Positions 7,801 through 38,200 of a stretch of DNA of 64,000 nt are shown piece by piece (within the stretch, counting starts at the first letter, position 1; each line of letters starts with the position of its first letter). Both the position numbers and the translations under genes were made by a program. The stretch comes from Laetmonice hystrix (lineage: Eukaryota): assembly GCA_965235115.1 (NCBI GenBank), contig OZ249436.1:18788001-18852000 (forward strand), given 5' to 3'. Under the pieces are notes generated by a model. It ran no database searches and was not told the DNA's origin. It was given only the letters and a program-made list of their open reading frames with translations.

Positions 7801-10800
7801 GCTGTAATGTGAATGCGGGATTTACCGAGAGCAGCCACCAGGGGGCATTACGCGCATGGTTATCCCTGAAACTCTAGCGCAAGGAGTATGAATATTTTGA
7901 TCAAATCCTTACACCTTCACCGAACACCTCATTTTGATTTATATTGCATTCTCCTAATAGTAGAGCCCCCAAACAACCTCACACCCCCTCTAAATTACCA
8001 TGTGTGTCCAATAGGCCTAAGTCTGTTTTCATGCGACATATTTTGTTCTAATGAATTTTATGTAATTCCACTTTTTTTCAACACATTATGTGTAGGTTCC
8101 TCGGGAGCTCACTACCGCTATAGCGGCAAGAAAGTTCCCCTGGCAAAGAATGGGTAGTCTGAACGCTGATCTTTATCAGCCCTTATCATTTCTGCCGGCA
8201 GAAGCTCTCCCAGCAACTAGGTGTGAACATGGCCTAAGGGCATAACAGATAACAATACAAGTTATGACACTATACTATGTACATCTCTAATACACTATGG
8301 ATAATACCTATAATACAACATGGATATATTAATACACTAAAGACATAACAATACAAGTTATGATCCCTACAAAGGTTGGTAATTCATTATGAAAAATATT
8401 CTATTTAATTCTCTACTTTCATCCAGGAGTAGAGAACAGTTTGTTTTTGATGTTGTAGACTGTAGGCTGTGTAGCTCACCCTACTAATGATTTGGGCCAG
8501 TTCTCGCCATTCATTGTTATAACCCATGTATCCTCCCAATGGTTTCAGCAAACGGTCCTGGCAACAGAACAATGAAACTTGTCACACAGAGTGATATCTG
8601 AGGATTTACAATCATAAAGACAGCAGGCTCTGGGGAAGGGGACTGTTGTACAGTAAATATATTATCTGTAATTAGGACGAATATGCTGTGGAGTACTCAC
8701 CGGAGCGTCCATGCCATCCTCTGAGTTTAGCCTGGTTGCATCATTGATCATTGACCGTATATCTATGATCTGGCCAACCTGTCATCAAACAATTCCACAA
8801 ACACTATCATTGGTCTATGACTACCACATACCTGTAACCACAGGAATAGAGTCAGATTTTTACTACTTCCCAACAAATTTCAACAGGATGCTATATGGTG
8901 GATCTTAGATAGTTAGTTCACATGTAGCTGAAAATTTGCGGAATAAGAGACAACCATCACTGCCTGAAGTATAATTTTACGATACCATAATTTTCATCAC
9001 ACTGAACTTTCCCTTGAACTGGTAACCACTGTCCCTTGGGGGGGGGGGGGGGAGATACATTACAGGCCCATAGCCAGGTTTGTTTGTGTGGGGATCTGAG
9101 GACCGTGGGGTGGAACTCATTGAGCGCCGAAGGTGCAGACCATTACAACTCAGCATGATGGTGGGATTGTTAGGTTGGAACTTCTGGGTACAGCACGATC
9201 GCTGATCCCTCAATCGCTCCCCCCCCCCCCCCCCCCCCCCCGCTGGCTAATGGGCCTGCACTAGCATTGGTTTACTGGAGAGACACAGTACCATTGGTAC
9301 CCTGCCAGTTTCCCATGGCCTTACCTTGGGTTTCCCTGAGACTTGCTCTTGGTCTGGAGGAGATATATTACCATTGGTTTACTGGAGAGACACGGTACCA
9401 TTGGTATCCTGCCAGTTTCCTGTGGCCTTACCTTGGGTTTCCCTGAGACTTGCTCTTGGTCTGGAGGAGATATATTACCATTGGTTTACTGGAGAGACAC
9501 GGTACCATTGGTATCCTGCCAGTTTCCTGTGGCCTTACCTTGGGTTTCCCTGGGACTTGCTCTTGGTCTGGGGGAGATATATTACCGCTGGTTTACTGGA
9601 GAGACATGGTACCATTGGTACCCTGCCAGTTTCCTGTGGCCTTACCCTGGGTTTAGTGCTGGATAGGCTCTGGAAAACCTTGGATTATTTCCCAGATGCC
9701 AGGAAAACGTGTATTTGGCCCTGTAATTTCCATTTTTTTCTGGGGGAGGGCCAGACCCCCCGCTCATGTCTTGGAGCCTTCGCCTTCTCCTGGATCCACC
9801 CATGACCCCCCCCCCCCCCCCAACTCAGAAATTTCTAGCTACGGCCCTGTCCTAGACTGCCCAACCATACCTTGTTCCGCCCATCGAAGTCCAGACCCCC
9901 CCCCCCCACCTGGAAGGCTGGCTACGGGCCTGCCATTGGTTTACTGGAGAGATACGGTACCATTGGTACCCTGCCAGTTTCCCATGGCCTTACCTTGGGT
10001 TTCCCTGGAACTTGCTCTTGGTCTGGAGGAGATATATTACTATTGGTTTACTGGAGAGACACGGTACCATTGGTGACCTGCCAGTTTCCCGCGGCCTTAC
10101 CTTGGGTTTCCCTAGAACTTGCTCTTGGTCTGGAGGAGATATATTACCATTGGTTTACTAGAGAGACACAGTGCCACTGGTACCCTGCCAGTTTCCCATG
10201 GCCTTGCCTTGGATTTCATTGGGACTTGCTCTTAGTCTGGGGGGAGATATATTACCATTGGTTTACCGGAGGGACACAGTACCATTGGTACCCTGCCAGT
10301 TTCCCATGGCCTTGCCTTGGATTTCATTGGGACTTGCTCTTAGTCTGGGGGGAGATATATTACCATTGGTTTACCGGAGAGACACAGTACCCCTGGTACC
10401 CTGCCAGTTTCCCGCGGCCTTACCTTGGGTTTCCCTGGGACTTGCTCTTGGTCTGGAGGAGATATATTACCATTGGTTTACCGGAGAGACACGGTACCAT
10501 TGGTACCCTGCCAGTTTCCCATGGCCTTACCTTGGGTTTCCCTGAGACTTGCTCTTGGTCTGGGGGAGATATATTACCATTGGTTTACCGGAGAGACACA
10601 GTACCACTGGTACCCTGCCAGTTTCCCGCGGCCTTACCTTGGGTTTCCCTGAGACTTGCTTTTGGTCTGGGGGAGATATATTACCATTGGTTTACCGGAG
10701 AGACACAGTGCCACTGGTACCCTGCCAGTTTCCCGCGGCCTTACCTTGGGTTTCCCTGAGACTTGCTCTTGGTCTAGGGGAGATATATTACCATTGGTTT

Positions 10801-35200: not shown

Positions 35201-38200
35201 CATGCGGCATCACTAGGTATGTTTAGGTTGGTGGTACAGACCACGGGTAGAGTCTGTGCTCCATGCGGCATCACTAGATATGTTTAGGTTGGTGGTACAG
35301 ACCACGGGCAGAGTCTGTGCTCCATGCGGCATCCCAAGGTATGTTTAGGTTGGTGATACAGACCACGGCAGAGTCTGTGCTCCATGCGGCACCACTAGGT
35401 ATGTTTAGGTTGGTGATACAGACCACGGGCAGAGTCTGTGCTCCATGCGGCATCACTAGGTATGTTTAGGTTGGTGATACAGACCCAGTGCAGAGTGGTA
35501 CTGCTAACTGTTACTGGCTAAGGAACAATCAGGGATCTGCCTATAAATATGGAACGGTGTGATTTAACAAAGTGTTATGCGTCCTGTGATCATCTGATCT
35601 GGTACATTGAAAAAGAAAACAAATTTCCTAAAGAAGGAGTAATACAGAATATATAGATACATGTATTTCCGAGATGTTTCAGTAGAGTAATAATGGAACT
35701 TTGCCAAAGGCAGATCGGCTCATTATTTTACCAGATGACATGTTTTGATTCAGGAATGTGGGGTTTCCATGACCGCCTCTTGACGTTACGGAAGGCCCTC
35801 TACACGACGCTCACCACCAGCCCTGCTAAGGGCGCCCTCTGGAGGAGATGGCGGTGGCACCAGACGCAGGCCAATAAAGAGGTTAGTGAACAAACTTGCC
35901 TTTGTGTAACAGATTATAAACCTACTCAATTATCATTTGTAGGATTGAAGGACAACTTGTCAACTTAATTATCAAAGGTAATACTATACCCTTGTTTTCA
36001 TTTTTAAAGACTTGGAAAGAATCTTGTCATTCGATTTTTGGTTTTATGATTGTTAGTCTGGACTGATGTACTCGGAGTCGGAGTGGCAGACAGAGTGGGA
36101 GAACTTGCTGAAGCTGGCTTCGACTAAACCTCGCACTACGCCAGGGTCAAACACGTCCTGCTGTTCCGGACCCGCTACCAAGGGGTAAGGTCATGCAGGG
36201 GTTGGGTAAGGTTACACAGGGGTCGGGTAAGGTCACAAAGGGGTCGACTAAGGTCACACAGGGGTTGAGGTAAGATAAGATTTTGGGCGTCACAGAAGAT
36301 GCGGGAGAGAACTAAATTATATTGATTGCAAACTTTGCCCAAGATGTAATCCCAGACTGAATCAAAACCTGATTTCTAGCTGAATACTGCAGAGACCTGA
36401 CTGCTATCAAGTTGACCCAGTTCCCTGATTGTTGTGGTTCTGTTGATAGGTTGATGGAGAGGACGGTGGAGCGTGAGACTGACTCGGACTCTGCCTCTGA
36501 GGTGTTTTATGAGAGTCTGGAAGAGTTCCATGTTTTCGTTCTGGCTCATGTCCTGAGGCGTCCAATCATCATCGTTGCTGACACCATACTAAAGGATTCC
36601 AATGGAGAGGCCTTAGCCCCGATCCCGTTTGGTGGTATTTATCTACCACTAGAGTGCGCTCCAGATATCTGCCATCGTACACCTCTCTTGCTCACCTACG
36701 ACGCCAGCCATTTCTCGGCCCTGGTTGCCATGGAACAAGATATCTCACCTGATGAAAAACCAGGCCCGCCAGGTAGGTTCAGAGGTTTTATAAACCAGGC
36801 TCGCCAGGTAGGTTCCGAGGTTTTATAAACCAGGCCTGCCAGGTAGGTTCCGAGGTTTTATAAACCAGGGTCGCCAGGTAGATTCCGAGGTTTTATAAAC
36901 CAGGCCCGCCAGGTAGGTTCAGAGGTTTTATAAACCAGGCCCGCCAGGTAGGTTCAGAGGTTTTATAAACCAGGCCCGCCAGGTAGGTTCAGAGGTTTTA
37001 TAAACCAGGCCCGCCAGGTAGGTTCAGAGGTTTTATAAACCAGGCCCGCCAGGTAGGTTCAGAGGTTTTATAAACCAGGCTTGCCAGGTAGGTTTAGAGG
37101 TTTTATAAACTAGGCCATCCAGGTAAGTTCAGCGGTTTTATAAACCAGGCTCGCCAGGTAGGTTCAGAGGTTTTATAAACCAGGCCCGCCAGGTAGGTTC
37201 AGAGGTTTTATAAACCAGGCTCGCCAGGTAGGTTCAGAGGTTTTATTTTAATGTACAGTGCACAGCAAGTTGTGCCCTCCAATATCTGACCCCATAAAGT
37301 TAGATCGTGTATGTTCTGCCTTACTTTATTAGACATTGTCAGTTCAGATAGAGAAACTGTTACTGAACCTTCTATTTTTATTACTCTGCAGCCGCTATAC
37401 CTTTGGTGGACCCTGAGTTCCGACTTCTCCCGATTCATTACTTGGTCGACCCTGGCATGGCATTCGTCTGGGGTCGTGATGAGAATGAGCCAGAGAGGAC
37501 GTGTAACCTTGAGTTGAGTGCTGACGATTGTCTCAATGTGATCAAACGATACTTGCCCATTGAGAGAATAGCCATCCCCCGTGGCGCCAACATTGTCCAA
37601 CAACCTGGCCTGCTGGTCGCTCCTGGTGATACCGACCAGGGCCAACAGCCACGCTCCAGGTCCAACAGTCAGAGTGGCTCTGTCGATTCGGATGAAAATA
37701 ACAGCATCGGCAGCAGCGGCAGCATCAAGGACAAAGAGAAGAGTAAAGTAGCCAAGCAAATGCAGACTGTTGCAAAATCATTCGGCAGTATAGGAAAGAC
37801 GATGAGTAAAAAACTGAAGAAGAACTTTGGTGGTGTTGGCAAAAGTGGCAGGTTAGCGGAGGATAAAGTGAAGGAGAAGGAGAAGAAGAGAATTCGGAGA
37901 ACGTCAGTGGGCAGCGTGACACAGAGTACCAAGCTGACGAGTGTAACCGTGGAGATGCTGCGGGACAGGGAGCACATCCTGTGTGTGTGCATGTCACACA
38001 AACGGACGGACTACCAGGAGGAAATGGTCAGGAATTACCTGCTGGCCGCCCAGGAGCGTTTCAAACAGGACCGTGAACTCCGCCGCCAGCAGGACGTTGA
38101 GATGCGCCTCAAGGTCGAGCTTCGTAGTAATAAGGACGGCGGAGGCTCGCTGCCCCCAGGTGGCGCTAGTGTCCGCGTGGTGCCTCCAGTCTCAGATACC

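What the first reader, a model, noticed from the sequence alone, without database searches (positions are those of the whole stretch)
9262..37246. Recurrent minisatellites anchored exactly on exon/intron donor junctions (splice-donor arrays)
Seen in the sequence: four unrelated tandem arrays in two genes (107 bp at 9262-11093; 61 bp at 34773-35484; ~21 bp at 36183-36275; 35 bp at 36757-37246) each start inside a coding exon and have a unit made of the exon's last bases plus the 5' splice site and first intron bases. A fifth (52 bp at 1-90) also contains GG|GTAAGT. I saw no array built on a real acceptor. Inference: four of roughly 40 donors being hit looks too frequent for random placement, suggesting either a junction-associated duplication mechanism or a selective filter, since a duplication extending into the intron leaves the first donor intact. 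Either way the spliceosome must choose the first of 12-15 near-identical donors. Established background: tandem duplication of AG|GT-containing sequence is a proposed route of intron gain, but here the units include pre-existing intron sequence.
Basis: partly seen in the sequence, partly recalled or inferred. Interest (0 to 1): 0.8.

Follow-up and report, generated by a model that had tools for sequence, protein, structure and literature searches.

The report
Five "mirage" splice-donor minisatellites
In an invertebrate animal, five exon ends with their splice signal are copied head to tail into the next intron (up to 15 times), and the spliced transcript read at two of them leaves at the first, genuine signal, so this is likely a harmless case of a repeat type already known from lancelets and a few human genes.

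Summary
Four arrays (107, 61, 21, 35 bp) start inside coding exons of a katanin-like and an OTUD7-like gene and hold 15, 12, 5 and 14 junction copies (13, 10, 4, 14 with GT). A fifth (52 bp) is the tail of such an array in CatSper2. One run that behaves as RNA splices from the first donor at the 107-bp and 52-bp arrays; the three OTUD7 arrays gave no usable RNA. All but one of the downstream donors would shift the frame or hit a stop. The three OTUD7 host introns occur in other animals without arrays, so no intron was created there. Locally 4 of 42 donors and 0 of 43 acceptors are hit, against 0.8 expected each (P 0.006; 0.006-0.16 with other repeat definitions). But the window was picked for this, about 2 of 317 windows would reach it by chance, and no genome is held for the real test. 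This is the published 'mirage' minisatellite (lancelets; human F7, ABCA7). The scan found it before, in this genome and in at least 24 genomes (122 notes, unchecked). Open: whether donors are truly favoured genome-wide.

The parts
1..90 (+). Tail of a 52-bp donor array (about 45 nt exon end + 7 nt intron) in a CatSper2 intron; the true exon lies upstream of the window; acceptor at 126
   Evidence: RNA-like contig joins unique upstream sequence and one diverged unit to the exon at 127; gene matches CatSper2 chain 7eeb_B, E=3e-7
9262..9654 (-). 107-bp array, distal segment, 4 donor copies, in katanin-like intron 8779-11063
9655..9932 (.). 278-nt non-array insert that splits the 107-bp array; begins with a terminal motif shared with other element-like stretches of the window
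9933..11094 (-). 107-bp array, proximal segment, 11 junction copies (9 GT, 2 GC); first unit is 105 nt, so donor 2 (+105) is in frame and stop-free (+35 aa)
11064..11207 (-). Katanin-like coding exon whose last 31 nt seed the 107-bp unit; authentic donor at 11063
   Evidence: joint 8776->11062 skipping 2285 nt, depth 33.1, one contig; open 559-aa spliced frame
34693..34791 (+). OTUD7-like exon (catalytic-domain start) whose last 19 nt seed the 61-bp unit; donor at 34792
   Evidence: tblastn 86-94% identity; frame
34773..35496 (+). 61-bp array, 12 junction copies (10 GT, 2 AT); units 5-7 and 8-10 share variants (block duplication)
   Evidence: DNA contigs break at its edges
36183..36274 (+). 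21-bp array starting 2 nt before the donor at 36185; 4 GT copies; read-through meets a stop at once
   Evidence: one DNA contig across it lacks 21 nt
36757..37246 (+). 35-bp array, 14 junction copies, all GT; donor at 36773; copy 11 (+350) scores higher than the authentic donor
   Evidence: DNA contigs break at its edges

Best explanation
These are 'mirage' minisatellites: short stretches spanning an exon end and its splice donor are repeated head to tail into old introns, likely seeded by ordinary tandem duplication in a repeat-rich genome, likely lengthened by unequal exchange, and likely tolerated because splicing takes the first donor, as the RNA-like contig does at two of the five arrays. 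Shown: anatomy, old introns (OTUD7), first-donor use at the 107-bp and 52-bp arrays, stops or frameshifts behind all but one downstream donor. Inferred: the seeding and growth route; that exon definition or 5'-to-3' scanning picks the first donor as in human F7; that rare leaks would be removed by nonsense-mediated decay; that the local excess at donors is largely due to the window having been chosen for it.
For: 30 arrays cover 12.7% of the window and 26 of 30 touch no junction. First donor used at the 107-bp array (joint skips 2285 nt, 77 nt on the short side) and no RNA-like contig lies on 10081-10920. 52-bp: unique upstream sequence + one unit + next exon. Downstream donors: only +105 of the 107-bp array is in frame and stop-free. 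Same intron, same phase, no repeated donor in 5 of 13 related loci covering the exon 5/6 junction; an intron lies between exons 7 and 8 in 17 of 26 loci and between exons 8 and 9 in 16 of 25, none with a TRF array at the donor. Shared variants between neighbouring or block-spaced units. Donor 9-mers are neither more nor less variable than the rest of the unit (1 vs 1.0, 2 vs 2.6, 1 vs 2.2 expected), as for neutral copies. Literature: PMC3087553, PMC3902484, PMC1557585, PMC5954066.
Against: The local excess survives three nulls: whole window P=0.006, GC-weighted P=0.006, conditional on the host introns P=0.0004-0.0007; a pure filter cannot produce an excess. Three arrays sit in four consecutive introns of one gene. 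RNA evidence is one contig per junction from one run; contigs drop rare isoforms; the three OTUD7 arrays had no usable RNA cover. In human ABCA7 a similar donor VNTR does alter splicing (PMC5954066).
Confidence: 0.7

Rival explanations
1. Tandem duplications arise preferentially at 5' splice sites in this animal (for example breaks or template switches where polymerase pauses or RNA-DNA hybrids form just after an exon), so the excess is mutational and genome-wide. Tolerance still works as in the best explanation.
For: 4 observed vs 0.6-0.8 expected under all nulls tried, not explained by GC or by short introns; 0 of 43 acceptors; unchecked earlier notes on this genome report an excess at junctions or donors (e1-9803302, e1-8147634).
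Against: Window chosen for the pattern: about 2 of 317 windows expected at this P; P=0.16 with the widest repeat definition; 4:0 not significant; seed breakpoints lie at different offsets (2 to 45 nt into the exon, 7 to 76 nt into the intron) and share no motif or microhomology that I could see; other unchecked notes on this genome report acceptor arrays as frequent as donor arrays, or chance levels (e1-7908560, e1-9986039).
Confidence: 0.2
2. The arrays act on splicing: spare donors divert a share of transcripts to decay or cause neighbouring exon skipping in a length-dependent way (as in ABCA7), and donor 2 of the katanin-like gene gives an isoform with 35 more residues.
For: Copies score as high as the authentic donors and two kinds of copy score higher; donor 2 of the 107-bp array is in frame because the first unit is 105 nt; ABCA7 shows about 2% single-unit retention and length-dependent exon skipping (PMC5954066 passages).
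Against: Listed RNA-like joint uses donor 1 only, among 15 joints shown of 16; orthologous OTUD7 introns in distant animals lack arrays; no sign that donor motifs are conserved within the arrays; in F7, in-frame pseudo-sites stay silent (PMC1557585 Discussion).
Confidence: 0.08
3. The arrays are assembly artefacts or the junctions are not real donors.
Against: Contigs of three DNA-like runs stop 30-56 nt inside the 61-bp and 35-bp arrays, as expected if the reads hold repeats, and two of three span the 21-bp array without gaps; units differ by patterned substitutions; junctions are backed by RNA-like joints or homology.
Confidence: 0.02

Closest known systems
Lancelet 'mirage' minisatellites (Adh3, troponin C, globins BflGb6 and BflGb9, PGBD5). 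Seen: 6 passages of PMC3087553, 1 passage of PMC3902484; the original Adh3 paper only through these citations
   Same: Tandem units spanning an exon-intron boundary; unit sizes in the reported 10-160 bp range; many but not all units keep the splice signal; normal splicing seen; patterned homogenisation of units
   Different: Host is probably a lophotrochozoan, not a lancelet (best named OTUD7 hits: two nemerteans and a polychaete; no tree made); only donor-type arrays in this window, whereas lancelet cases cover both boundaries
Human F7 intron 7 37-bp VNTR. Seen: abstract and Discussion of PMC1557585
   Same: First unit holds the exon-intron junction; identical downstream donors; only the most upstream is used
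   Different: F7 pseudo-sites were shown functional by mutation and the allele range is known; neither could be tested here; here five arrays in three neighbouring genes
Human ABCA7 intron 18 25-bp VNTR. Seen: 12 passages of PMC5954066
   Same: Unit starts at the donor GT, like the 21-bp array here; use of the second donor would break the frame
   Different: ABCA7 length changes splicing and disease risk; no such effect shown here
Intron gain by tandem duplication (Rogers model; human cases in PMC2812944, 8 passages seen)
   Same: Tandem duplication multiplies splice signals; some units here also hold a weak AG
   Different: Units contain old intron sequence, the OTUD7 introns predate the arrays, and no new exon or intron is seen in the RNA-like run

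Membership tests
mirage minisatellite | Tandem repeat whose unit spans an exon-intron boundary | tested here: met
   four arrays span modelled donors; the fifth by the RNA-like contig
mirage minisatellite | Many but not all units keep the splice signal | tested here: met
   GT in 13 of 15, 10 of 12, 4 of 5, 14 of 14 copies
mirage minisatellite | Regular splicing is not disturbed | tested here: inconclusive
   First donor used at 2 of 5 arrays, one contig each; no joint shown for the three OTUD7 arrays; contigs drop rare forms
mirage minisatellite | Length differs between haplotypes | tested here: inconclusive
   One of three DNA-like contigs over 35447-36786 has 21 gap letters; the gap's place was not shown, so loss of one 21-bp unit is inferred
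mirage minisatellite | Concerted evolution inside the cluster, boundary units set apart | tested here: met
   61-bp units 6/9 and 7/10 pair up; unit 1 differs from all copies at one site; 107-bp units 8 and 9 share a variant set; no tree built
F7/ABCA7-type donor VNTR | First unit contains the authentic donor | tested here: met
F7/ABCA7-type donor VNTR | Downstream donors can be used when the first is disabled, or leak at low level | not testable with these tools
   Needs minigene mutation or deep raw RNA reads; only contigs were served
F7/ABCA7-type donor VNTR | Variable copy number in a population | not testable with these tools
   All four runs are one sample
Rogers-type intron gain | Duplication of exonic AG-GT sequence creates a new intron | tested here: not met
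   Units hold intron sequence; the three OTUD7 introns are present in related loci; katanin-like and CatSper2 introns not compared

The most novel reading that the evidence does not exclude
In this animal, DNA duplication is seeded preferentially at 5' splice sites, several-fold above chance, by a process tied to transcription or splicing, so that splice donors are mutational hotspots for new minisatellites. The genome would then be a natural mass experiment on how the spliceosome chooses among identical donors, with in-frame cases such as donor 2 of the katanin-like gene (+35 residues) as raw material for exon extension.
Probability: 0.2. Interest if true: 0.6.

Novelty: new member of a known kind. 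Interest (0 to 1): 0.22.

Why it matters
As it stands it is a clean further example of a described oddity, useful mainly as a warning for gene annotation (decoy donors) and as extra support that first-donor choice holds outside mammals and lancelets. It would matter more if a genome-wide count showed a true excess at donors: I found no genome-wide test of that in print (searches; one search returned 0 papers; subscription journals are mostly not in the library), and it would link splicing to where DNA duplications start.

Tried and rejected
Whole-genome test: no genome held. Run search: no RNA holder listed; run X4 is taken as RNA only from its spliced joints. RNA at the OTUD7 arrays: no X4 cover in the bins of the 61-bp and 35-bp arrays and no joint shown for the 21-bp one, so no evidence either way. 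GC bias as the cause of the excess: rejected, expectation unchanged at 0.74. Short host introns as the cause: rejected for this window, 0.5-0.6 expected vs 4 of 5. Microhomology at seed breakpoints: none seen for the 107-bp and 35-bp seeds; unclear for the other two. Selective decay or conservation of decoy donors: no signal, low power. Hidden microexon series: the AG in the 107-bp unit scores below 41 of 42 real acceptors; those in the 61-bp and 35-bp units rank 8 and 10 of 42 from the bottom; not seen in RNA. Full-length katanin and CatSper2 relatives for intron comparison: one search gave katanin A1-type proteins only, one search gave none. Papers read without gain: PMC12783039 (earthworm metallothionein repeats, passages) and PMC10078293 (human splicing-linked repeats, passages) hold no test of junction enrichment in what I saw. 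No supplements were opened.
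Full report
Setting. The window is animal DNA with five genes: the end of CatSper2 (+; match to chain 7eeb_B, E=3e-7), a katanin p60-like AAA gene (-; Pfam AAA; katanin hits; the name KATNAL2 is recalled, not tested), an OTUD7-like deubiquitinase (+), an ATP synthase alpha/beta gene (-; 'alpha' recalled) and a polyprenyl synthase (+; 'GGPS1' recalled). 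The best named OTUD7 hits are two nemerteans and a polychaete at 29-41% identity, so the host is probably a lophotrochozoan; I built no tree. No genome is held.

Gene models. I modelled 42 introns, all GT-AG: 11 from RNA-like joints, 8 from tblastn exon ends, 23 by eye. Spliced frames are open for 559, 987 and 550 residues in the katanin-like, OTUD7-like and ATP synthase genes; the fifth gene broke at an acceptor set one base off, which I corrected without re-translating. Left out of the count: possible optional exons in 12381-15895, two microexon-like copies, a possible second first exon of the OTUD7-like gene and one UTR donor. Adding them would raise the chance expectation a little. Median intron length is 270 nt.

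The observation. TRF (score 50 or more, period 10 or more) gives 30 merged arrays covering 12.7% of the window; 4 span a donor, none of 43 acceptors. The 107-bp unit is 31 nt exon + 76 nt intron with 15 junction copies (13 GT, 2 GC), split by a 278-nt insert; the 61-bp unit is 19 + 42 with 12 copies (10 GT); the 35-bp unit is 16 + 19 with 14 copies; the 21-bp unit starts 2 nt before the donor, 4 of 5 positions with GT. The 52-bp repeat at 1-90 is cut by the window edge and was not in the TRF count.

Are they real? Four runs hold the region, all one sample and study, possibly the source of the window. In three DNA-like runs the contigs stop 30-56 nt inside the 35-bp array (both edges, 3 of 3 runs) and the 61-bp array (right edge 3 of 3, left edge 2 of 3 shown), as contigs do at true repeats. 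Two contigs cross the 21-bp array without gaps; the third has 21 gap letters, which likely is an allele one unit shorter (place not shown).

Which donor is used? Run X4 has no library record but shows 11 joints with intron ends, so I treat it as RNA. It joins 8776 to 11062, skipping 2285 nt, which is the intron from the first donor (11063); donor 2 would skip 2180. Depth 33.1, one contig, 77 nt on the short side; nothing lies on 10081-10920 (15 of 16 joints shown). At the 52-bp array a contig carries unique upstream sequence, one unit that differs from the window's copies, and then the exon at 127: again the first donor. For the three OTUD7 arrays no joint was shown. Contigs drop rare forms, so leak rates are unknown. 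Reading on from the authentic donor meets a stop at intron nt 214, 69, 2 and 54; all downstream donors shift the frame or lie behind that stop, except +105 in the 107-bp array, which would add 35 residues because the first unit is 105 nt.

Old or new introns? A metagenome scan gave 51 OTUD7-like loci. Of 13 covering the exon 5/6 junction, 5 have an intron at the same place and phase and 8 have none (transcripts or intron loss); 17 of 26 have an intron between exons 7 and 8, and 16 of 25 between exons 8 and 9; none has an array at the donor. These are distant animals and short-read contigs break at arrays, so this shows that the introns are old, not that relatives lack arrays.

More than chance? 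Collapsing arrays to one unit and placing seeds at random outside wholly coding positions gives 0.77 donor and 0.78 acceptor hits expected; observed 4 and 0 (P=0.006; zero acceptors P=0.45). Larger arrays only: 4 of 16, P=0.002; 3 of 7, P=0.002. GC weighting does not change it (0.74 expected). Given the five short introns that hold an array, 4 at the donor against 0.5-0.6 expected, P=0.0004-0.0007. Against this: a TRF-free scan gives 3-4 of 42 donors against 1.4-3.3% of control positions, P from 0.006 to 0.16 over six settings; 4:0 donors to acceptors is P=0.125; and the window was picked for the pattern among 317 noted windows of this genome, of which about 2 would reach P<=0.006 by chance. 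So the local excess is real but cannot carry a genome-wide claim.

How it most likely works. A short tandem duplication that happens to span an exon end leaves the exon and first donor intact and puts the copies in the intron (shown by anatomy). Unequal exchange likely lengthens it: 61-bp units 5-7 and 8-10 repeat the same variants, and 107-bp units 8 and 9 share theirs. Splicing takes the first donor (shown at two arrays), likely by the upstream-first rule shown for human F7, where downstream identical donors are functional but silent (PMC1557585, abstract and Discussion). Leaks would mostly carry early stops and would be removed by nonsense-mediated decay (established pathway; not tested). 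Decoy donor motifs vary as much as the rest of the unit (low power). I saw no shared breakpoint signal; the 107-bp seed ends at a run of C, a single case.

What is known. PMC3087553 (passages) describes minisatellite-like duplications of exon-intron boundaries in lancelet globins and Adh3, named mirages, on both boundaries, unstable in length and without effect on regular splicing; PMC3902484 (one passage) adds PGBD5 and troponin C. Human F7 and ABCA7 (PMC5954066, passages) have donor VNTRs; in ABCA7 one-unit retention is about 2% and length affects skipping of the next exon, so such arrays are not always silent. The name and the first two papers came to me through earlier notes of this scan; I then read them. 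The scan lists 122 notes in at least 24 genomes with these words, unchecked; for this genome they disagree on whether donors are favoured. Searches for a genome-wide test in print found none.

Verdict. Real, accurately seen, and a new member of a known kind. Interest 0.22. The one open point with weight is a genome-wide donor bias (about 20%), which needs the assembly.

Noticed in passing
window 11797-11826 and 11939-11968 (-): Two related 30-nt microexon-like copies, each with AG and GTAAG, in the katanin-like intron 11208-12247; the RNA-like contig skips both. Possible old duplication of an optional microexon.
   Followed up: partly
window 659-911 (+): A 137-bp duplication spans the CatSper2 stop codon; the first copy keeps the stop, the same tolerance logic as for donor arrays.
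   Followed up: no
window 1100-2647: 1548 nt in the CatSper2 3' UTR are absent from the RNA-like contig (joint 1099->2648, no intron ends, 5 shared letters) and are bounded by inverted copies of one motif; likely an insertion that another allele lacks.
   Followed up: partly
window 9063-9258 and 9655-9932: Two element-like inserts with the same terminal motif enter the 107-bp unit at nearly the same position; the two inserts gave no BLAST match to each other beyond poly-C/G runs.
   Followed up: partly
window 39092-44900 (+): RNA-like contigs run to 44885 with depth rising towards that end, just before an AATAAA: likely a 3' UTR of about 5.8 kb for the OTUD7-like gene, which would contain the 48-, 40- and 62-bp arrays.
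   Followed up: no
window 32388-32452 (+): Possible alternative first coding exon of the OTUD7-like gene (ATG, phase-1 donor fitting the next exon); seen by eye.
   Followed up: no
window 36757-37246 (+): Each 35-bp unit holds AG, 9 nt, GT: a latent in-frame 9-nt microexon; its acceptor ranks 10 of 42 from the bottom.
   Followed up: partly
window 32638-33371: Intronic 24-bp array (30.7 copies) that is stop-free in several frames and could mislead gene prediction.
   Followed up: no
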